64,000 nt of DNA from an uncultured Clostridia bacterium. GTDB taxonomy: Bacteria > Bacillota > Clostridia > TANB77 > UBA1234. The DNA lies in NCBI GenBank assembly GCA_934149405.1, contig CAKPEV010000001.1, positions 552 to 64,551 on the forward strand, written 5' to 3'. This document shows, piece by piece, positions 7,367 to 27,251 of this stretch; within the stretch, counting starts at the first letter, position 1; each line of letters opens with the position of its first letter. The position numbers and the translations under genes are program-made. Below the pieces are notes generated by a model that was given only the letters and a program-made list of their open reading frames with translations, was not told the DNA's origin and did no database searches.

Positions 7367-7631
7367 TATTTATATCGCTCCTTAATGAATCATATATATC
7401 TTCGCTTATCGTTTCTTCGAATTCTTTTTCCAATCTTTTAGCCTTAATAGCTTTTTCCAAACACTCCTTGTTGTAACATATATATGCTCCACGTCCATTT
7501 TTTTTGCCTGTTTTGTCTATGCAAATCTCCCCCTCTGAAGTTTTTACTACTCTTATAAGTTCTTTCTTTGGTTTCGATTCATAACAACCAAGGCATCTTC
7601 TCATAGGTATTTTTTTCAACATTCTTAACAC
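7356..7631 (-). CDS. ylxR: YlxR/DUF448 RNA-binding protein
   Basis: RRCLGC...GRGAYIC motif. Position directly after nusA. Confidence 0.8.
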   Translation of the reverse strand: MLRMLKKIPMRRCLGCYESKPKKELIRVVKTSEGEICIDKTGKKNGRGAYICYNKECLEKAIKAKRLEKEFEETISEDIYDSLRSDINSDK

Positions 7632-7640
7632 CTCTTCGTT

Positions 7641-8687
7641 TTAAGCTTCACCTTTTATTTGAGATTCTGATTTAATATCTATCTTCCAACCTGTAAGTTT
7701 TGCTGCAAGTCTAGCATTTTGGCCATCTTTACCAATCGCAAGTGATAATTGTGAATCTGGTACAACAACTTTTGATGTCATTTCCTCCGGATTCACATCT
7801 ACTGCAAGAACTGATGCTGGGCTAAGTGCTGATGCAATATATTGAACTGGATCTTCGCTCCATTCTACAACATCTATCTTTTCTTCTTTTAATTCGTTTA
7901 AGATATTTTGAATTCTTATTCCTCTAGGACCAACACAAGAACCAACTGGATCTATATTCATATCCTTTGAATAAACTGCAATCTTTGTTCTAGAACCTGC
8001 TTCTCTAACTATATTTTTAATCTCTATTAGCCCCTCATATATCTCTGGTATTTCAAGTTCGAATAGTCTTTTTACAAAACCTGGATGCGTTCTAGAAATC
8101 ATCATTTGAGGAACACCTTTGCTATTTTTTTGAACATCCACAACATATGCTTTTATTTTATCATTTACCGCATATGTTTCTGTAGGAATTTGTTCGTTTG
8201 CTGTCATTATTCCTTCAAGTCTTCCCAAATCAACTATAACGACATTTTTATCAACTTTTTGTATTAATCCACTAACAATTTCGCCTTGTCTATCTGAATA
8301 TTCTGTATAAACAATCTCTCTCTCAGCTTCTCTAATTTTTTGAACTATAACTTGCTTTGCTGTTTGCGCAGCTATTCTTCCAAAGTCTCTAGGAGTAATT
8401 TCAACTTCAACAGTGTCACCCATTTGAACCTTTTTGTCTATTTTTCTAGCATCATCCAAAGAAATTTCTATAGCTGGATCAAAAACTTCTTCGCAAACTT
8501 CTTTTATCGAATACACTTTTATAATAGCGTTTTTCTCATCTATTACTATTTTTACGTTTTCCTCTGCATTAAAGTTCTTTTTATACGCTGTAATTAATGC
8601 TGTTTCAATTGCATCTAGCAAATAATCTTTGTTTATTCCTTTTTCTATACTTAACTCTTCTAATGCTTCAAAAAATTCTTTATTCAT
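7641..8687 (-). CDS. nusA: Transcription termination/antitermination factor NusA. The likely start is MNKEFFEALEE, internal to the longer ORF.
   Basis: S1 and KH domains. Operon position. Confidence 0.9.
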   Translation of the reverse strand: MNKEFFEALEELSIEKGINKDYLLDAIETALITAYKKNFNAEENVKIVIDEKNAIIKVYSIKEVCEEVFDPAIEISLDDARKIDKKVQMGDTVEVEITPRDFGRIAAQTAKQVIVQKIREAEREIVYTEYSDRQGEIVSGLIQKVDKNVVIVDLGRLEGIMTANEQIPTETYAVNDKIKAYVVDVQKNSKGVPQMMISRTHPGFVKRLFELEIPEIYEGLIEIKNIVREAGSRTKIAVYSKDMNIDPVGSCVGPRGIRIQNILNELKEEKIDVVEWSEDPVQYIASALSPASVLAVDVNPEEMTSKVVVPDSQLSLAIGKDGQNARLAAKLTGWKIDIKSESQIKGEA

Positions 8688-19495: not shown

Positions 19496-19589
19496 AATTT
19501 CCCTCCTTATATCTCAAGTGTAAAATGTTGCTTTTAAAAAATCTACATACCGTTGGTTGAGTGGAGATATCAACCAATGGTTGTTTGGT

Positions 19590-20069
19590 TTAGGCTCTTA
19601 CGTAATCAATGATTTGCTGTAAGTTTGACTCAGAAACAAAATTTTCACCGTACTTAAATAATTTTATCATTTCTTGATTTTCTGGCTTATTGTCTATCTC
19701 CATCATTTTTCCAACCCACATAAAAAGCTTCTTTGTAAAGTATCCTAATTTGTCATAATTCAATCCACCTCTTAAATAAAATAATGGCTTATCTAATTTA
19801 TTTTTTGTAGCCAAACTAGCTATGTATGCATCTTCCTTTGGATATATTCCGACTGCTCCTACGCATTTAACATTGTATTTTTTCACTTTAGCTAGACCTT
19901 TTATTTTAGTAGCCGCTATCCATCCTAGAAATATAATTTCATCGTTTCTTTTAAGCTGTTTTCTCGCTTCTTTAGCAGTTAATGCTGGAACTTTGATTTT
20001 CTCACTTAACATTTCGGCATATTGCTTAGTATGACCTGTACTACTTTCATATACAATTGCTTTTAACAT
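19590..20069 (-). CDS. Flavodoxin-like fold protein
   Basis: 159 aa. N-terminal KAIVYESSTGHTKQYAEML resembles a flavodoxin FMN-binding loop. Confidence 0.5.
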   Translation of the reverse strand: MLKAIVYESSTGHTKQYAEMLSEKIKVPALTAKEARKQLKRNDEIIFLGWIAATKIKGLAKVKKYNVKCVGAVGIYPKEDAYIASLATKNKLDKPLFYLRGGLNYDKLGYFTKKLFMWVGKMMEIDNKPENQEMIKLFKYGENFVSESNLQQIIDYVRA

Positions 20070-20473
20070 TTTTACTACCTCTCTTTAATCAAATTGTGTT
20101 TGCCAATCTTGCTTATTCTATTTTTTCGCATCTTACTTGCAAGTTTTAATAAACTTCTATGTATGCTTTGCAAGTCCATTTGAAAATCTTTTTGCTTTAG
20201 TTGGATTGCCTGTGTCAAATATAGTTTTTTTCATGGTTAATCTTCTTTTTTCTTTTAATTTTACTTTTTTTACCATATCTAATATTTTTCTAATATCTAT
20301 TGTTCATTTATATAAGTCCATTTACAGTATAAATTTTATTACACTTTATATGCTTTTTCAACAAGTCTGTAAATTTGAGGACATATTTACAATATTTGTA
20401 GCTTTACATAGATTACATAAAAACGTTACAATTATATTGTACGAGACTAAGACTAATGAAGGAGGTTTTAATT

Positions 20474-21569
20474 ATGTCAAATACAAAACTTAAGTTATTA
20501 ACATGTCTGACACTTGCATTTTCATTTCTATTCTTTGCATGTTTAACTAATGTCTCTATGGCGAGTTATTCTAGCAGTTATGCTGAACCACACGTATTAG
20601 TTCGCAAAGGTTCAAGTGGCAACTCAGTTAAGTGGGTTCAAGATATGCTAAATCATTCTCGGCTATAACCTATCTATTGATGGTATATTTGGCACAAAGA
20701 CATACAATGCTGTTATTAGTTTTCAAAGAAACAAGGGGCTTGTAGTTGATGGTATTGTTGGAGCAAAAACCCGTAGCGCATTAAAAAACGCTTCTACATC
20801 TTCTGTTTCTTCAGGCACGATAAATGCATACAGATATGTAACAACTAATGTTAACTTTAGAAACGGTCCAGGAACATCTTATTACAGCAAGGGAATTTTA
20901 AGTAAGAACACCCAAGTGTATGTTTACCAAATCAGAAAGGATGGTTGGGCATATGTAAAACATAACAATTCTTATGGATATATTTATTCAAAATATTTGT
21001 CTACAAATCAAGTAAGTACTGTAACGCAGTCAACTTCCTTACCTGCATTTTCTAGGACAAATACATCTATTACTGGAATAGCTAAAGCATGTAAATCTTA
21101 CATTGCTCAAAATAACTTTGTTTATAGCCTTGCTGCAGGTGCTAGAACTATCCCAATGGATAAAAGCAAGCTATATAATGGTAACTATTGTGTTGACTGC
21201 AGTTCTTATGTTTCATGGGTTCTTTATGAATATGCTTTAATAAATGGCAAAACAAGTATGCAGAACTATTTTAATTATCAAAGAAACAGTGGCACTTTTG
21301 CAAGTATAGGTGCAAGCGGTGGAAATAGTTATTTATCAGTAGTATCTTCAAAAGGAAATTCAAATGTAGATTTATCAAAAGCAAAGGCTGGAGATATTTT
21401 AGTAAGTCCTGGACATGTTGAAATTTTTAGCTCTTACACTACAATTGGAAATAATGTAAGTATAAAAGTGTATAACTGTGGTTCTAATTCAAGCATAAAA
21501 TATGCTGGTCTTACAACCTCTGCAACAAGAAACATAAGTGAAATAACATATATATTAAGAGTAAAATAG
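20474..21569 (+). pseudogene. Secreted cell-wall hydrolase (signal peptide + PG_binding_1 + SH3b + NlpC/P60-like Cys/His domain), interrupted by a frameshift near 20655-20665
   Basis: Frame 2 gives ...VKWVQDMLNHSRL*. Frame 0 continues GYNLSIDGIFGTKTYNAVISFQ...GIVG (PG-binding). Then an SH3b-like segment and VDCSSYVSWV...GHVEIF catalytic motifs. Confidence 0.6.
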
Positions 21570-21620
21570 GAAAAATCAAAATTTTTTATTTTCATTTTTG
21601 ACTATTTTTAAATAATGTAA

Positions 21621-21665
21621 AAAAATACCCCTCAGCATAATAAATGAGCTAAGGGGTATTCTTTA
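21621..21665. terminator. Bidirectional terminator AAAAAATACCCCT-loop-AGGGGTATTCTTT between the hydrolase gene and the MYG1 gene
   Basis: Hairpin with an A-run on one side and a T-rich run on the other. Confidence 0.55.
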
Positions 21666-21710
21666 TACAACAAAGAGAGCATTCATAATGAATACTCTCT
21701 TTTGGGATTA

Positions 21711-22622
21711 TTAAGCTTCGATTGCAAGCTTTGCAAGTCGGATTGCTCCGTCCTTAGACATTGCTGCACCAATAAATCCATTTGGGTGACAGAAAGTAGC
21801 ATCACTTACTCCTGTCAATTCTTGGAGTTCTTTTGCCGGAGCTCCCCACCATTCCTTAGGTGTAGATTTGCGAACGGCAAAATTACCCAGACTTTCAGGG
21901 ACGGCTTGCCAATTAAAGCCTCCTCTGTTAGAAGGAAATACTACAAACAGTATTTCTGCTGCCTTCGGATTATCAGAAGCAAACAACGCATCCTGCCACG
22001 GCACGAATGTCTCCAGAACCATAATATGGTCTTTGGAATTTTCAATCGCCGCCTCAACTATCCCAATGGCTTTAACCTTTGAAATAGTATTCGACAGAAG
22101 CCTATCGAAGATTCTCTTTGCCTCGTCAACGGCCTTTACAAAAGCCTCATCCGGTGTTTCTGTGCTGTCCCATGCAGGATTGAAACTTGAAATGATAGCA
22201 GAAATCGTCATAGGCTTGACCACAGCTTCACATCTTGGTATTGCACCGCAATCAATTGCATCGATACCAGATATCAACTGCTCATCAATCAGCCGCCATA
22301 CGTTTTCTACGTCTTCGACCTCTTTCAAGAGTTCTTTACCAAACTCTCTCCAGATAAGTCCACACGAAGCGTACGGTACGCCGTTTTCTCTTGCGCCATT
22401 TCCTCCACGCTGATGATGGTCATATTTACCTCCACCAATGTCGAGTACAATAGTGCCATCGGGAAGGTCATTCGGAACCTTAAAGACCCTTGAGACCTTC
22501 ATCTCCCGGCCGAAAATTTCCGAAAGAATGGCAACTGCCATTACCTCATCTGCATGGAACACACCTCCATGAGTTACAACCTGAGCTTCTGCGGGGTTCT
22601 TCGTAATAATAATGTTTTCCAT
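21711..22622 (-). CDS. MYG1/UPF0160-family metal-dependent protein hydrolase. The gene is markedly GC-rich (about 47%).
   Basis: THGGVFHADEV N-terminal motif and length (303 aa) typical of the MYG1 family. Codon usage atypical for the window. Confidence 0.7.
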   Translation of the reverse strand: MENIIITKNPAEAQVVTHGGVFHADEVMAVAILSEIFGREMKVSRVFKVPNDLPDGTIVLDIGGGKYDHHQRGGNGARENGVPYASCGLIWREFGKELLKEVEDVENVWRLIDEQLISGIDAIDCGAIPRCEAVVKPMTISAIISSFNPAWDSTETPDEAFVKAVDEAKRIFDRLLSNTISKVKAIGIVEAAIENSKDHIMVLETFVPWQDALFASDNPKAAEILFVVFPSNRGGFNWQAVPESLGNFAVRKSTPKEWWGAPAKELQELTGVSDATFCHPNGFIGAAMSKDGAIRLAKLAIEA

Positions 22623-22837
22623 AACATTATCCTCCTAGAATTAAATTATGTGCTGTTTCTAATATATTTTATAACTAATGGTATATATCATTTCAACCAT
22701 GTTAATAAAAGAATAGAAACAACTAAAAAAATTTGCATACAAATGATATTATACAATACTTAACATAATTTGTCAACTAGCATTTTATTTTTTCTTTATT
22801 CACCCTAATACTGCTCCCCAAAAGCTATACTCAAAAT

Positions 22838-23080
22838 TTATTTTACCTCTTCCAAAGCCCTTGCCAATTGGTCTCCACAAGATGTTCCTTTTGTACCACA
22901 ATTTATTCCCTTTAATAATTTAATAACCTTTTCCTTTGGTTGTCCCTCCACAAGAGCTGCTACAGCCTTTAAATTTCCATTACAGCCTCCTGTAAATCTT
23001 ACATTTTTAACTATTCCATTTTCTATTTCAAATTCAATTTTTCTTGAACATGTTCCATTTGTTTCATAAGTATATTTCAT
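22838..23080 (-). CDS. TIGR03905-family Cys-containing small protein. The likely start is MKYTYETNG, after an AAAAGGAGAG RBS.
   Basis: GTCSRKIEF...GGCNGNLKAVAALVEGQ...GTSCGDQLA resembles the TIGR03905 family. Confidence 0.55.
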   Translation of the reverse strand: MKYTYETNGTCSRKIEFEIENGIVKNVRFTGGCNGNLKAVAALVEGQPKEKVIKLLKGINCGTKGTSCGDQLARALEEVK

Positions 23081-23545
23081 TTTTACTCTCCTTTTATATT
23101 TTGGTGTGTCCATTAATTTTATGGAGCACGCCTAAGCTTAAGCTGAATTTTTGCAGCATATTTTATTCTTTCATAAATTAATTTACACTACCTTATATTT
23201 ATTTTGAGGCATTTGGAATAATTTATTTGCAATAGATTAAAATTTTTATATTTTCTCTTTTCCATTGCCATAAATACCCTGCCATTAATACTAGCAAATT
23301 TATTTTACTTTTCAGGATAAGTATTGTCAAGAGACCAAAATTTTATATAATATAATGTGATATAATATAACACGCTGTAATTAATATAAATATAAGTACA
23401 TTAACGATTGCCTTAATTTTCACAAAGAAATTGATGCGTTATCTTAAAAAATATAAATTATTTTAGTTTTCGACAAATTTCGACAAAATATAATCCTTAT
23501 AACTATTAAAATTGAAATATATTTTAATTTAAAGGAGGAATTGTT

Positions 23546-23998
23546 ATGTCAAGATATGTTGAAAAAAATTTAGGAAAAGACGAAGAAATTGTTGGAAAAG
23601 GAGAAGTACATAAGATATGTCTTTTGCCACACATTTTACTATGCTTTATTTACATTGGTTTTTTTACCATTTGGGCCGCTATTATCAGAATATGTACTAC
23701 CGATTTAGCTTTCACAAATAAGCGATTACTTGGAAAAGTAGGCCTAATTAACACCAAAGTATTGGATACGCCACTTAATAAAATTAATAATGTTTCAATT
23801 GAACAAGGTTTGGGCGGAAAACTATTTGGATATGGTACAATTGTTGTTTCAAGTTCTTCAGCTCAGTATAATTTTAAAGGAATTAAAAATCCTGAAGTAT
23901 TTAGAAGTAGATTAATGGAACAAATTGATAAATTTGATGAAGACAGAATCAAAAAGCAAGCTATGGAAATGGCAAAAGCAATGAAAGAAAACAATTAA
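23546..23998 (+). CDS. Bacterial PH-domain (bPH_2/YdbT-like) membrane protein
   Basis: Two TM helices followed by NVSIEQGLGGKLFGYGTIVVSSS, characteristic of the bPH_2 family. Confidence 0.6.
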   Translation: MSRYVEKNLGKDEEIVGKGEVHKICLLPHILLCFIYIGFFTIWAAIIRICTTDLAFTNKRLLGKVGLINTKVLDTPLNKINNVSIEQGLGGKLFGYGTIVVSSSSAQYNFKGIKNPEVFRSRLMEQIDKFDEDRIKKQAMEMAKAMKENN

Positions 23999-24031
23999 AG
24001 TTGTTAAAAAAAAGATAGGTGATGAAATTAG

Positions 24032-24514
24032 ATGAACAGTAATAAGCCAAAGATAACTCGTCTAATGCTATTAGGTTTAATAATACTTTTACCTTTTATA
24101 ATTATGATGAAAAATAGTTTTTCTGACTTGCAACAAAGTAAATTAGAAGATACTCTACTAACAAGTGAAAATTATACATCTGCTTCAAGTATTGTAGAGA
24201 AGGCTATCGATTGTTTAAAAAGTGGAGATATTGTTTCTATGGAAAATTTATTAAGTAGTGATTGTGAATTTTATAACATCAGTACTAAATATTCCTTAAG
24301 CTCATGCTTAGAAAATTTATCTGAGTATGAAAGTTGTTGGTATGAAGAACGTGGAAACTCAATAGGAGATGAAAAAACATATAGAATATATTGGAATGGA
24401 TACAACCTAGATAATGCTCAACAAATAATAACACTAATTTTAAAGAAAAAAGTGACTCAATCAGAAATCACTTATGAAATTAAAAATATTATTTTATCTA
24501 ATAATACTATTTAA
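24032..24514 (+). CDS. Hypothetical membrane-anchored 160-aa protein
   Basis: N-terminal signal-anchor (LMLLGLIILLPFIIMM). No recognisable family. Confidence 0.4.
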   Translation: MNSNKPKITRLMLLGLIILLPFIIMMKNSFSDLQQSKLEDTLLTSENYTSASSIVEKAIDCLKSGDIVSMENLLSSDCEFYNISTKYSLSSCLENLSEYESCWYEERGNSIGDEKTYRIYWNGYNLDNAQQIITLILKKKVTQSEITYEIKNIILSNNTI

Positions 24515-24614
24515 TATTTTGTCTTCCAGCAAAAATTCGATATAATTATAAATATTAAATAAAAAAGGATAACGATTGGAACTATAGCAAGATTAAAGTG
24601 AAAGGAAAGAATTT

Positions 24615-25346
24615 ATGGAAGAAAATAATGAACTAATAAAATTAGAAGAAAAATTAAAAGCAATTGAACATAAAGATAACTCTTTGAAAAGACTAGATAT
24701 GTCATTTGGTAAGCACATCGAATTGAAGGAATATAAGAAGAGCCATCTTCTTGCCTATTGGATAGCTGATTTTTCAGAATACCACGATGTTGAACGAAAT
24801 TTTGATTATAGTAAATTAAAAACATTTAAACGCGGAGACATAATAAAAGTTAATTTAGGCTTTAATATAGGTAGCGAATTAGGCGGTTTACATTATTGTG
24901 TTGTTTTAAACAAATACGACAACCCACATTCGAAAGTACTGAATGTTATCCCACTAACCTCAAAAAAGGATAATAAAAAATATGATTCAAAAGCTTGTAT
25001 CGATTTAGGAGACGAAATTTACACGCTACTAAATAACAAATTTGAAAAAGATTTAAAAGAATGCGAAAAAGAATTACAAACCGTAAAAGACCTCCTTACT
25101 GCTACCCCGTCGTCATCCCAAAATGAACGATTAAATAGTCTTTCAATGAAGCTAATGTATTTAGGAAAAATAAAAGAAGAATTGCAAAAGATGAAACACG
25201 GTTCGATTGCAAAAATTGACCAAATCACAACCGTTAGTAAAATCAGAATATTCAACACTAAAAACAATATATTACTTGGCATTACAGCTACGAACCGAAC
25301 TCTAGACCTAATAGATAGCAAAATAAAGAAGCTATATACAAAATAA
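24615..25346 (+). CDS. Atypical MazF/PemK-fold protein (243 aa) with an N-terminal extension and a roughly 50-aa coiled-coil insertion
   Basis: KRGDIIKVNLGFNIGSELGGLHYCVVLN...VLNVIPLTSK matches the PemK/MazF core. C-terminal GSIAKIDQITTVSKIRI resembles the second MazF conserved block. Confidence 0.55.
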   Translation: MEENNELIKLEEKLKAIEHKDNSLKRLDMSFGKHIELKEYKKSHLLAYWIADFSEYHDVERNFDYSKLKTFKRGDIIKVNLGFNIGSELGGLHYCVVLNKYDNPHSKVLNVIPLTSKKDNKKYDSKACIDLGDEIYTLLNNKFEKDLKECEKELQTVKDLLTATPSSSQNERLNSLSMKLMYLGKIKEELQKMKHGSIAKIDQITTVSKIRIFNTKNNILLGITATNRTLDLIDSKIKKLYTK

Positions 25347-25447
25347 TTTTGTATAATTTATTTGACAATGAGCATATTATATATTATAATCTAATTATAA
25401 CTTAGCCACTTGTTATGTTAAGTAACGAGTCGGTCATAATAAGATTT

Positions 25448-25477
25448 AGAGTGTCTCATTGCAGACACTCTTTTTTA
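25448..25477 (+). terminator. Rho-independent terminator AGAGTGTCT-cattgc-AGACACTCT followed by TTTTTT
   Basis: Perfect 9-bp stem plus T6, immediately after the MazF-like gene. Confidence 0.7.
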
Positions 25478-25640
25478 TTTCAAAATAAATTATAAAAAAG
25501 ATAACATATTAACTTGGCGGAAGGCATGTTATCTCTTCTCTATTCACAAATGATAACCCACTTGTAAGATAACTACATTTTAAGCTATTTTTTATCCTCT
25601 TACAAGTGGAACAAATATTCTAACTCTAGGAGGTATTTTT

Positions 25641-26761
25641 ATGTCTAAAAGAAATTATAACGGTGAAGGAACTGTTTATTATCACCCAAAACTCAAAAGA
25701 TGGGTTGGACAGTTCACAGACCCTTTTACACACAAAAGAAAAGCCTTATATGATAAAGATGAAAAAGCACTTAGGAAAAAACTTAGACAAGCTATAAATG
25801 ATGCAGAAAAAGGAAAATTTGTTGAAAAATCAAAGGATACCATACCCGAAATTGCAGAGCGAATTATTGAACGCAAGCATCAAGCCAATATTACTGGTTC
25901 TTCTGCTTAACTTAGAAGCTTAGGAACTCTTGCTATTATTAAAAAATCCGAACTAGCAGACATATTCCTATTCAAAATGTTACTAAAGATGATTTGCAAG
26001 ACTTTTTCTTTACTTTAAAAGACTATTCTAATTCGTACATATTTAAAATATATCAAATTGTTAAGATATCTTTTGAGGAGGCTATAAAAGATGAATTGAT
26101 TGTTAAAAATCCTATGATATATGTTATAAAGCCAAAGTCCAATAAGCAAGATAAAAAAGTAGAGGCTCTCACACTGGAACAACATCAGCTCTTTATCAAG
26201 TCACTTGAAAACGAAAATTACAAGAATATATTTTTAATAGCAATAAATACGGGTATGCGTTGTGGTGAAATTCTAGCTTTAAAACCTAGTGACATTGACT
26301 TAGATAATAAAATCATAAAAGTGTCGAAAACTATCACCAGAAATGATTATGACAGCTATACAATTAAAGACGGTGGTAAGACATATGCTAGCACGCGTGA
26401 AATTCCTTTTGATAACGATTTAAAGCAAGTACTGATAACTTCTATAAATGAAATGAAAAATAACGAATTGGGGCTCTTATTTGCATTAGACGGAAAGATT
26501 ATTCGTCCCACTTCTCTTAACTTGGTTTTCAAACGAATTCGCAAGGACTTAAAGTTTGAAGGTAGCTATAATTTTCATATGTTACGTCATACGTTTGCTA
26601 CTAGGTGTATTGAAAGTGGTATGCCTGCTCATGTTCTACAAAAATTATTAGGTCATACCGGTGTATCTGTTACGATTAACACATACACTTCAATATTTGA
26701 CAAATATAAAAAAGAAGAATTTAACAAGTTTCTAGAATATAAAAGATTAAATAACATTTAG
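25641..26761 (+). pseudogene. Phage-type tyrosine integrase, inactivated by an in-frame TAA (25908) and a frameshift around 25960
   Basis: N-terminal arm-binding domain ORF ending at 25910. Catalytic domain ORF with R...HMLRHTFAT...Y. Intervening ...IPIQNVTKDDLQDFFF is readable only after a shift. Confidence 0.75.
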
Positions 26762-26787
26762 TAGGTTTTATGCCTACTTTTTTATTG

Positions 26788-26850
26788 CAAATTTTACTGC
26801 AATTTACAGCAATTTATAGCAATTATCAGCAATTCGTAGCAACTAAAAAC
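26788..26850. repeat. Six tandem degenerate decamers (ACTGCAATTT, ACAGCAATTT, ATAGCAATTA, TCAGCAATTC, GTAGCAACTA, AAAACAACTA)
   Basis: Visible 10-bp periodicity with an AGCAAYT core, between the integrase 3' end and tRNA-Leu. Confidence 0.55.
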
Positions 26851-26939
26851 AACTAATAAAAAGCCTTGTAAGTACTGATATATCAACAAGATATAACAAA
26901 ATAGCCATTTTGAAGATTTACTTCAAAATGGCTATCAAA

Positions 26940-27023
26940 TGGTGCGGGTGAGAGGACTTGAACCCCCACGTCTGTGACACTAGATCCTAAGTCTAGCGCG
27001 TCTGCCAGTTCCGCCACACCCGC
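26940..27023 (-). tRNA. tRNA-Leu (anticodon UAG), class II with a long variable arm, genomically encoded CCA
   Basis: Reverse complement reads GCGGGTGTGGCGGAACTGGCAGACGCGCTAGACTTAGGATCTAGTGTCACAGACGTGGGGGTTCAAGTCCTCTCACCCGCACCA. Anticodon loop CTTAGGA. Confidence 0.85.
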
Positions 27024-27251
27024 ATGTCGTTTCGACATTTTCAATATTAGCACATTTTTATCTAATCTGTCAATATTTATTTTGCAATTTGCGAATTTTT
27101 TAGGAGGAGAGCTTATTATGTTCTCCTCCTATTATTTTATATAACAAAAACTTGTTAAATTTTTTCATTTATAACTAATTGCATCACATATTTGCTTAGC
27201 ATTTTAAAAGCTTTCAAACTAAAAATCCTTGTTTTCTAAATACTCTTTTTC

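What the first reader, a model, noticed from the sequence alone, without database searches (positions are those of the whole stretch)
23500..25480. Self-contained three-gene cassette (bPH_2 membrane protein, small membrane protein, atypical 243-aa MazF/PemK-fold protein) inside a decayed integrative island
The three plus-strand genes 23546-23998, 24032-24514 and 24615-25346 are separated by 33 and 100 nt. They follow a 430-bp AT-rich non-coding stretch and end at a near-perfect terminator (25448-25477). They lie between a GC-rich foreign gene and a dead integrase abutting tRNA-Leu.

The last gene has the PemK/MazF endoribonuclease core (KRGDIIKVNLGFNIGSELGGLHYCVVLN...VIPLTSK, GSIAKIDQITTVSKIRI). 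It carries a roughly 70-aa N-terminal extension and a roughly 50-aa coiled-coil insertion. There is no small MazE-like antitoxin gene upstream. The partners are instead a bacterial PH-domain membrane protein and a signal-anchored protein. That architecture does not match canonical type II TA modules. It is more reminiscent of membrane-coupled abortive-infection / defence modules.
Basis: partly seen in the sequence, partly recalled or inferred. Interest (0 to 1): 0.6.

Follow-up and report, generated by a model that had tools for sequence, protein, structure and literature searches.

The report
Sma-like MazF defence gene in prophage remnant
The odd 243-residue MazF-like protein belongs to a phage and satellite family that includes Sma, a known single-protein anti-phage system, and the two membrane genes beside it are unrelated cargo of a decayed prophage rather than its partners.

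Summary

The "three-gene cassette" reading does not hold.
- DNA comparison splits the region into three separately exchangeable modules with sharp junctions.
- None of 143 other loci encoding a relative of the 243-aa protein has a homologue of ORF1 or ORF2 nearby.
- ORF1 and ORF2 homologues occur elsewhere without the MazF-like gene.

The 243-aa protein is a full-length member of phrog_1412. The family has a helical N-terminal extension, a split MazF core and a helical hairpin insertion. An invariant His replaces the catalytic Arg.

In Staphylococcus, Streptococcus and gut Clostridia temperate phages the gene sits between the cI repressor and the integrase. [quoted passage not shown] It aligns with the window protein at hhalign probability 99%.

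Best reading: a solitary Sma-family abortive-infection RNase kept in a prophage remnant, next to two independent membrane morons. This is a new, distant member of a known kind. No function was tested here.

The parts
23114..23545 (.). AT-rich non-coding leader. The left breakpoint of the prophage remnant lies at about 23440-23447. Contains a promoter-like site at 23324-23351.
   Evidence: No ORF. GC is 23%. Similarity to prophage loci L017, L007 and L112 begins only at 23439-23475. In L017 that point is the last ~10 nt of the cI gene. The site TTGTCA-16-TATAAT is a consensus match only.
23546..23998 (+). ORF1, 150 aa: membrane protein with a bacterial PH domain (bPH_2). An independent moron.
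   Evidence: Pfam bPH_2 E 5.7e-10. phrog_3707 'membrane-flanked domain', moron category, E 7.7e-22. The block 23447-23996 is 83% identical to L017. Homologues at 60-65% identity are solitary chromosomal genes with no PemK neighbour.
24032..24514 (+). ORF2, 160 aa: N-terminal membrane helix plus an NTF2-like domain. A rare phage moron.
   Evidence: No Pfam, NCBIfam or PHROG family. Only 6 homologues were found in 5.8 billion clusters. AF2 pLDDT is 87, and the top Foldseek hits are NTF2-like/ketosteroid-isomerase-like proteins. The block 23995-24578 is 97.6% identical to L013, where it follows cI and precedes KwaB/KwaA with no PemK.
24515..24614 (+). Intergenic gap and module junction, with a promoter-like site at 24519-24546 and a ribosome-binding site. 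No antitoxin ORF.
   Evidence: The ORF2-module similarity ends at 24578, and the PemK-module similarity starts at 24588-24599. No credible ORF. No tandem repeats. The promoter is a consensus match only.
24615..25346 (+). 243-aa Sma-family (phrog_1412) protein. It has N-terminal helices (about residues 1-70), the N-half of the MazF core (72-130), a helical hairpin insertion (132-192), the C-half of the MazF core (193-215) and a C-terminal helix.
   Evidence: Pfam PemK_toxin E 1.5e-11. phrog_1412 E 1.8e-50 over residues 17-242. AF2 pLDDT 75, with top Foldseek hits to S. aureus and B. subtilis MazF (TM to target 0.73). hhalign to SaPIpT1028 ORF005 gives probability 99%, E 2.6e-18. dN/dS is 0.075 against L001.
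25448..25477 (+). Intrinsic terminator closing the PemK module, ahead of the integrase.
   Evidence: 9-bp stem, 4 G-C pairs, a 6-nt loop and a T-run. It lies inside the block that is 98.9% identical to L017. The same order, PemK then terminator then int, is annotated in phage B236.
25641..26761 (+). Tyrosine integrase pseudogene.
   Evidence: Phage_integrase E 1.3e-27 on the C-terminal piece. Stop codon at 25908-25910 and a frame change near 25965.
26940..27023 (-). tRNA-Leu (anticodon TAG), the likely integration landmark. Its 3' end faces the integrase.
   Evidence: ARAGORN. Rfam tRNA, 53.8 bits.

Best explanation
The region is the integrase-proximal end of a temperate phage that has lost its repressor and everything beyond it. 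What survives is the variable cargo slot that normally lies between the cI repressor and the integrase, plus a dead integrase next to tRNA-Leu. The slot holds three independent cargo genes.

The important gene encodes the 243-aa protein. It is a member of the family (phrog_1412) that includes Sma of the S. aureus island SaPIpT1028. Sma is a single-protein MazF-like anti-phage system that is expressed while the element is integrated.

Proposed mechanism, inferred by homology and not shown here:
1. The protein is made constitutively in the lysogen. Transcription comes from the repressor operon in intact phages, and here perhaps from promoter-like sites at 23324 or 24519.
2. Its own helical N-terminal extension and helical hairpin hold the MazF-type RNase core inactive, so no separate antitoxin is needed.
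3. An infecting phage triggers the protein.
4. The protein cleaves RNA, using an invariant His in place of the usual catalytic Arg. Translation stops and the infection aborts.

ORF1 (bPH_2 membrane protein) and ORF2 (membrane-anchored NTF2-like protein) are separate morons. They may act as superinfection-exclusion-type envelope proteins, but that role is speculative. They are not partners of the RNase.
For: **Family and fold**
- phrog_1412 is the best and near full-length hit for the window protein (1.8e-50), SaPIpT1028 ORF005 (4e-67), phage B236 ORF02 (5.8e-86) and the Javan166 protein (1.2e-46).
- hhalign of the window-family profile against ORF005 gives probability 99% and E 2.6e-18 over residues 45-243. 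hmmsearch gives 2.8e-35.
- ORF005 is the only PemK-domain ORF in SaPIpT1028.
- The MazF fold is supported by AF2 and Foldseek and by a profile match to B. subtilis MazF.

**Conserved core**
- E88, G91, P113, S116 and K209 are present in 86 of 86 relatives.
- H93 is present in 85 of 86, at the position of B. subtilis MazF R25.
- T or S at position 115 is present in 81 of 86, at the position of T48.

**Single-gene nature**
- The gene has no conserved neighbour. Upstream genes differ between loci: a 57-aa membrane peptide, a DUF3862/BLIP lipoprotein, bPH_2, or none. Most genomic copies are solitary with long intergenic flanks.

**Position**
- The order cI, then gene, then terminator, then integrase is seen in B236, Javan166 and gut prophages.
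- In 63 IMG/VR contigs, a cI-like gene lies upstream in 45, and the gene lies within 2.6 kb of the contig end in 43.

**Defence hotspot**
- The same slot holds Kiwa in L013, and Abi_alpha is adjacent in L046 and L048. This matches the reported FS_Sma/AbiAlpha/AbiD cluster in phage genomes (bioRxiv 10.64898/2026.05.06.722914).

**Selection**
- dN/dS is 0.075 (18 synonymous, 6 non-synonymous differences) against L001 and 0.19 against L011. The neighbouring integrase, by contrast, is broken.
Against: - No experiment was done here. Anti-phage activity, RNase activity and autoinhibition are all inferred.
- That ORF005 equals Sma is deduced from its being the only MazF-like ORF of SaPIpT1028. The original Cell 2022 paper could not be read.
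- Identity to ORF005 is only about 30-36% over the core, so function could have diverged.
- The catalytic Arg is replaced by His, and whether that supports cleavage is untested.
- The model of the N-terminal region has low confidence (pLDDT 45-72), so the cis-inhibition idea has no structural support yet.
- The repressor promoter that drives the gene in intact prophages is missing here. Expression rests on consensus promoter matches, which are no more frequent than in shuffled sequence.
- The roles of ORF1 and ORF2 are guesses.
Confidence: 0.7

Rival explanations
1. One reading: the three genes form one membrane-coupled abortive-infection or toxin-antitoxin-like module, in which the bPH_2 protein and the signal-anchored protein sense or restrain the MazF-like RNase.
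For: The genes share a strand, have short gaps and end at one terminator. ORF1 and the PemK gene are also adjacent in one other prophage lineage, L017-L019.
Against: - The region is made of three separate DNA modules with junctions at 23995/23996 and 24578-24599. Each module is found without the others.
- 0 of 80 genomic loci and 0 of 63 viral loci encoding a relative have an ORF1 or ORF2 homologue nearby.
- ORF2 pairs with Kiwa or another module elsewhere.
- ORF1 homologues are solitary.
- The nearest PemK copy (98% identical) is preceded by a 57-aa peptide instead.
Confidence: 0.06
2. A fused (cis) toxin-antitoxin that serves mainly to keep the prophage or island in the cell. The N-terminal extension or the hairpin would act as a labile intramolecular antitoxin. 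In this reading the gene is an addiction element rather than a phage defence.
For: The protein has a MazF core with no separate antitoxin. It carries conserved extra helical parts, with W49 and E60 invariant. It is linked to integrases and mobile elements.
Against: The homologue in SaPIpT1028 is described as an anti-phage system (PMC12409344). Many genomic copies are solitary, with no recombinase within 6 kb (58 of 80). The gene is kept intact here although the element it would 'stabilise' is already dead.
Confidence: 0.12
3. An inert leftover. The three ORFs are simply undecayed debris of a dead prophage and have no current function in this host.
For: The integrase is broken, and the repressor and the rest of the phage are gone. 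The native cI promoter is absent.
Against: All three ORFs are full length. The PemK gene differs from an intact-prophage copy by 2 substitutions in 732 nt, so the deletion may simply be recent. This rival cannot be separated from 'retained because useful' on sequence alone. The purifying selection is a property of the family, not evidence for this particular copy.
Confidence: 0.1
4. A conventional type II MazEF system, or a type III (ToxIN-like) system, whose antitoxin was missed.
For: PemK_toxin Pfam hit. ToxN-type toxins share the fold (general knowledge).
Against: - There is no ORF in the gap, no tandem repeats and no Rfam family.
- No conserved small neighbour appears across 143 loci.
- NCBIfam MazF and ChpB equivalogs score far below their cut-offs, at 12-13 bits against 120-129.
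Confidence: 0.02

Closest known systems
[quoted passage not shown] ORF005 of AY954948 is inferred to be Sma.
   Same: - Same PHROG family (phrog_1412), matched near full length.
- Same layout: a short helical N-terminus with the conserved Trp, the MazF N-half with the GGH[YF] motif, a long helical insertion, the MazF C-half (SK..R) and a C-terminal helix.
- A single gene with no antitoxin.
- Placed next to the integrase of a mobile element.
   Different: - Only about 30-36% identity over the core.
- The Sma insertion is about twice as long.
- The host is an uncultured gut Clostridia lineage rather than Staphylococcus.
- The carrier is a prophage remnant rather than a satellite.
- No phenotype is known for this clade.
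'PemK-like phage protein' of S. aureus phietaviruses (B236 ORF02, phage 92 ORF020, SA12, SA13) and of Streptococcus Javan prophages
   Same: Same family, and the same position: cI repressor, then gene, then terminator, then integrase.
   Different: Identity is 24-44%. In the window the repressor has been deleted and two membrane morons lie upstream instead.
Canonical type II MazF/PemK/EndoA toxins (for example B. subtilis MazF, PDB 4MDX)
   Same: Same fold (Foldseek E 1e-4, TM to target about 0.72). The conserved E, T/S, Q, K and R positions of the RNA-binding surface are kept.
   Different: About twice the size, with a split core. His replaces the catalytic Arg25. There is no MazE or PemI partner, and the protein fails the NCBIfam equivalog cut-offs.
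GajC of type II Gabija (a split MazF-like domain with a five-helix insertion; PMC13069673)
   Same: A MazF-like core interrupted by a helical insertion and used as a defence effector.
   Different: GajC needs a GajB helicase partner, and no helicase is linked here. No sequence comparison was made.

Membership tests
Sma / FS_Sma family (phrog_1412) | Sequence homology to SaPIpT1028 Sma over most of its length | tested here: met
   hhalign probability 99%, E 2.6e-18, aligning window residues 45-243 with ORF005 residues 26-262. hmmsearch 2.8e-35. Both proteins have phrog_1412 as their best hit. Caveat: that ORF005 is Sma is inferred from its being the only PemK-domain ORF of the island.
Sma / FS_Sma family (phrog_1412) | Single protein with a MazF-like domain and no cognate antitoxin gene | tested here: met
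   MazF fold. No ORF or repeat RNA in the gap. No conserved neighbour in 143 loci.
Sma / FS_Sma family (phrog_1412) | Carried by a phage or satellite near the integrase and expressed in the integrated state | tested here: inconclusive
   The position is met: next to the integrase here and in B236, Javan166, gut prophages and SaPIpT1028. Expression cannot be tested, and the cI promoter is deleted in the window.
Sma / FS_Sma family (phrog_1412) | Protects against phage infection | not testable with these tools
   Needs a plaque or growth assay.
Type II MazEF/PemIK toxin-antitoxin | Adjacent small antitoxin gene (MazE/PemI) | tested here: not met
Type II MazEF/PemIK toxin-antitoxin | Compact toxin of about 110 aa that reaches the curated equivalog score | tested here: not met
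   The protein is 243 aa. NCBIfam MazF scores 12.9 bits against a cut-off of 120, and ChpB scores 11.8 against 129.
Type II MazEF/PemIK toxin-antitoxin | Catalytic Arg in the beta1-beta2 loop (B. subtilis MazF R25) and Thr (T48) | tested here: not met
   Arg is replaced by His93 in 85 of 86 family members. Thr or Ser is kept at position 115. That R25 and T48 are the catalytic residues is my own recall of the literature.
Type III ToxIN-like toxin-antitoxin | Tandem-repeat RNA antitoxin upstream of the toxin gene | tested here: not met
   No array in 22800-27200 apart from short two-copy matches and the array beside the integrase. No Rfam hit.
Type II Gabija (GajB + split-MazF GajC) | Linked UvrD-type helicase GajB | tested here: not met
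   No helicase in the window region or among the recurring neighbours.

The most novel reading that the evidence does not exclude
The Sma family as a whole may be a cis-autoinhibited MazF RNase. It would use an invariant His, not Arg, for catalysis. Its conserved Trp/Glu N-terminal helices and variable helical hairpin would serve as a built-in antitoxin and phage sensor, analogous to fused toxin-antitoxin defences.

The family has more than 1,200 representatives at 50% identity and is present in at least 248 species genomes. The gut-Clostridia clade would then be a large, unstudied reservoir of such sensors. The repressor-to-integrase slot of these prophages would be a two-tier hotspot, with a membrane-protein position followed by a cytoplasmic Abi position that alternately holds Sma-like, Kiwa or AbiAlpha genes.
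Probability: 0.3. Interest if true: 0.5.

Novelty: new member of a known kind. Interest (0 to 1): 0.3.

Why it matters
Sma-type single-protein MazF defences are named in the literature mainly for Staphylococcus. The family is labelled "PemK/MazF toxin", "hypothetical" or even "antitoxin mazE-like" in databases. PADLOC-DB v2 has no model that recognises it.

The family turns out to be abundant in prophages of uncultured gut Clostridia. Its features are sharply conserved: His for Arg in the active site, an invariant Trp and Glu in the extension, and a variable hairpin. These give concrete residues to mutate and a natural set of variants for finding what triggers the RNase.

For annotation, the result warns against reading co-directional prophage cargo genes as an operon-level system.

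Tried and rejected
- PADLOC scan of the three proteins found nothing. Sma itself also gets no specific PADLOC hit, so the library lacks the family.
- NCBIfam gave only sub-threshold MazF and ChpB hits.
- Pfam on the N-terminal extension and on the insertion alone found nothing.
- The search for a type III RNA antitoxin or any ncRNA found none.
- The search for att direct repeats of the tRNA-Leu region within 19500-27200 found no convincing pair, so the left end of the element is not defined by a repeat.
- The look-up of the flanking TSCPD protein, meant to find an empty site in related strains, found that the protein is not on record.
- The original Sma paper (Cell 2022) is not held, so its trigger and mechanism could not be checked.
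- Staphylococcal Gp05 was rejected as a lead. It is a 55-aa protein and unrelated.
- PdpSau, the S. aureus prophage Abi protein, was considered and set aside. Its abstract describes it as a membrane-anchored protein. That its gene is linked to the lysis module rather than to int/cI is my recollection of that paper, which I did not check.
Full report
**1. What is in the sequence**

The three plus-strand ORFs are at 23546-23998 (150 aa), 24032-24514 (160 aa) and 24615-25346 (243 aa), separated by 33 and 100 nt. A 432-nt non-coding stretch precedes them, and the 23000-23499 window has 23% GC. A hairpin with a T-run at 25448-25471 follows them.

Downstream lies a tyrosine integrase split into 25641-25910 and 25994-26761. 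It carries a stop codon at 25908-25910 and a frame change near 25965. tRNA-Leu sits at 26940-27023 on the minus strand.

Pfam assigns bPH_2 to ORF1 (E 5.7e-10) and PemK_toxin to ORF3 (E 1.5e-11, in two stretches). ORF2 matches nothing.

**2. The three genes are not a unit**

blastn against loci recovered through homologues splits the region into three blocks with sharp junctions.

| Window block | Content | Best match | Context in that locus |
|---|---|---|---|
| 23447-23996 | ORF1 | 83% to L017 | cI, bPH_2, PemK, integrase |
| 23995-24578 | ORF2 | 97.6% to L013 | cI, ORF2, then KwaB and KwaA (Kiwa), integrase; no PemK gene |
| 24588-25643 | ORF3, terminator and spacer up to the integrase start codon | 98.9% to L017, 96.7% to L001 | in L001 the upstream gene is a 57-aa membrane peptide |

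A third ORF2 context is L112. There the first codons of ORF1 are fused to ORF2, and an unrelated small ORF follows.

The wider survey agrees.
- In 80 species-representative genomic loci encoding a relative of ORF3, none has an ORF1 or ORF2 homologue within 6 kb.
- The same is true of 63 IMG/VR viral contigs.
- ORF1 homologues at 60-65% identity are solitary chromosomal genes. Some are divergent from a small HTH regulator.

It is met for the trio and for ORF2 with ORF3. ORF1 and ORF3 co-occur in just one other prophage lineage.

**3. What ORF3 is**

The protein has more than 1,000 close relatives, all about 230-260 aa. A profile search finds 1,257 representatives at 50% identity, and 248 species genomes encode one.

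The AF2 model (pLDDT 75) has these elements:
- two N-terminal helices (3-36 and 44-56);
- a beta core;
- a helical hairpin (132-161 and 167-192) inserted into the core;
- a C-terminal helix.

The best Foldseek hits in the PDB are S. aureus, B. subtilis and E. coli MazF, with TM to target of about 0.73. A profile match to B. subtilis MazF aligns GSEQGGVRP with GNELGGLHY.

Across 86 diverse relatives the following hold:
- His93 is present in 85 and sits where B. subtilis MazF has Arg25. That Arg25 is catalytic is my recall of the literature.
- Thr or Ser at position 115 is present in 81 and sits where MazF has Thr48.
- E88, G91, P113, S116 and K209 are invariant.
- Trp49 and Glu60 in the N-terminal extension are also invariant.
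- Every member has the extension (55-90 aa) and the insertion (48-80 aa).

The architecture is therefore not a peculiarity of this copy. It defines a family.

That family is phrog_1412. The window protein matches it at E 1.8e-50 over residues 17-242. The PHROG label for it, "antitoxin mazE-like", looks like a misnomer.

**4. Where the family lives**

tblastn finds relatives in 112 cultured-phage records, 63 from Staphylococcus and 48 from Streptococcus.

- In phage B236 the annotated order is cI-like repressor, "PemK-like phage protein", terminator, promoter, integrase, attP.
- Javan166 has the same order.
- So do the gut prophages that carry the nearest relatives.
- In IMG/VR, 45 of 63 contigs have a cI-like gene just upstream, and 43 of 63 have the gene within 2.6 kb of the contig end.
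- Among genomic loci, 22 of 80 have a tyrosine or serine recombinase within 6 kb. The rest are solitary genes with long intergenic flanks and no recurring neighbour.
- Two loci have an Abi_alpha gene next door.

**5. Link to a known defence system**

[quoted passage not shown] They say SaPIpT1028 carries it, that it is expressed while the island is integrated, and that it protects against non-helper phages (PMC12409344, PMC12829572). Both cite Fillol-Salom et al., Cell 2022, which I could not read.

SaPIpT1028 is GenBank AY954948. Its ORF005 (265 aa) lies beside the integrase. It is the island's only PemK-domain protein. It matches phrog_1412 at 4e-67. It aligns with the window family at hhalign probability 99%, E 2.6e-18, over residues 45-243, with the same parts in the same order.

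I therefore take ORF005 to be Sma and the window protein to be a distant Sma-family member.

An INPHARED survey reports FS_Sma in temperate phages, clustered with AbiAlpha and AbiD (bioRxiv 10.64898/2026.05.06.722914). This fits the neighbours seen here.

PADLOC-DB v2 gives no specific hit even for ORF005, which explains the empty PADLOC scan.

**6. The other two genes**

ORF1 is a bPH_2 membrane protein, phrog_3707, in the moron category.

ORF2 is rare, with six homologues, one of them in a Caudoviricetes MAG. It models confidently (pLDDT 87) as a membrane helix followed by an NTF2-like domain.

In other prophages the position just after cI holds a 57-aa two-helix peptide or a DUF3862/BLIP lipoprotein. 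A superinfection-exclusion-type role at the envelope is plausible for such genes, but this is speculation.

**7. Mechanism**

Shown here:
- the fold;
- the conserved core residues;
- the absence of any antitoxin gene or RNA;
- the single-gene distribution;
- placement in the lysogeny or cargo slot;
- interchange with Kiwa in that slot;
- purifying selection, with dN/dS 0.075 against L001 and 0.19 against L011, while the integrase beside it is dead.

Inferred:
- the protein is made in the lysogen;
- its own helical additions keep it inactive;
- an incoming phage activates it;
- it cuts RNA and aborts the infection.

The identity of the trigger and the competence of His93 are unknown.

**8. Verdict**

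The finding is real. It resolves into a known kind: an Sma-family single-protein MazF-like defence gene in a prophage remnant, flanked by unrelated membrane morons. The cassette idea is rejected.

The remaining interest lies in three things: the size of the gut-Clostridia clade, the conserved His-for-Arg active site, and the built-in helical parts, which invite a cis-regulation test.

Noticed in passing
window 26780-26858: About six tandem copies of a 10-bp unit (GCAATTTACA-like) lie between the integrase stop codon and the terminator of tRNA-Leu. They may be integrase arm-type binding sites or an att remnant.
   Followed up: no
window 25347-25640: The spacer between the MazF-like gene and the integrase folds much better than shuffled sequence (z -4.4). 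Besides the terminator it has inverted repeats at about 25498-25535 and 25556-25609, just upstream of the integrase start. Part of it (25492-25649) is 81% conserved in L013 despite a different integrase.
   Followed up: partly
L013 7001-10327: In a related prophage the same repressor-to-integrase slot holds the ORF2 homologue followed by a Kiwa system (KwaB 7600-8529, KwaA 8504-9061) in place of the MazF-like gene.
   Followed up: yes
L112 2137-2673 (protein P0123): An in-frame fusion of the first ~16 codons of ORF1 (MSRYVEKNLGKDEEIV) to an ORF2 homologue. It points to recombination between these cargo modules. A 36-aa ORF of unknown kind follows.
   Followed up: partly
phrog_1412 (database label): The PHROG family containing Sma-like MazF-fold proteins is annotated 'antitoxin mazE-like', and RefSeq phage records copy that label. 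It appears to be wrong, because the family carries the toxin fold.
   Followed up: partly
window 20456-20668 and 20916-21569: Two co-directional ORFs. The first looks by eye like a signal peptide followed by a peptidoglycan-binding region. The second has weak SH3, CHAP and NlpC/P60 matches. Together they look like one cell-wall hydrolase that has been split, so possibly a pseudogene.
   Followed up: no
window 21711-22622: The MYG1/UPF0160-family gene lies in a 45% GC patch within a background of about 30% GC. Its origin was not examined.
   Followed up: no
window 23468-23487: A perfect two-copy direct repeat, TTTCGACAAA, lies about 60 nt upstream of ORF1. It falls inside the block shared with prophage loci just downstream of their repressor genes.
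   Followed up: no
L017 6055-6976; L046 and L048: Other defence or toxin-antitoxin-type cargo lies near relatives of the MazF-like gene. A SocA_Panacea-domain gene sits beyond the integrase in L017, and Abi_alpha genes are adjacent in L046 and L048.
   Followed up: partly
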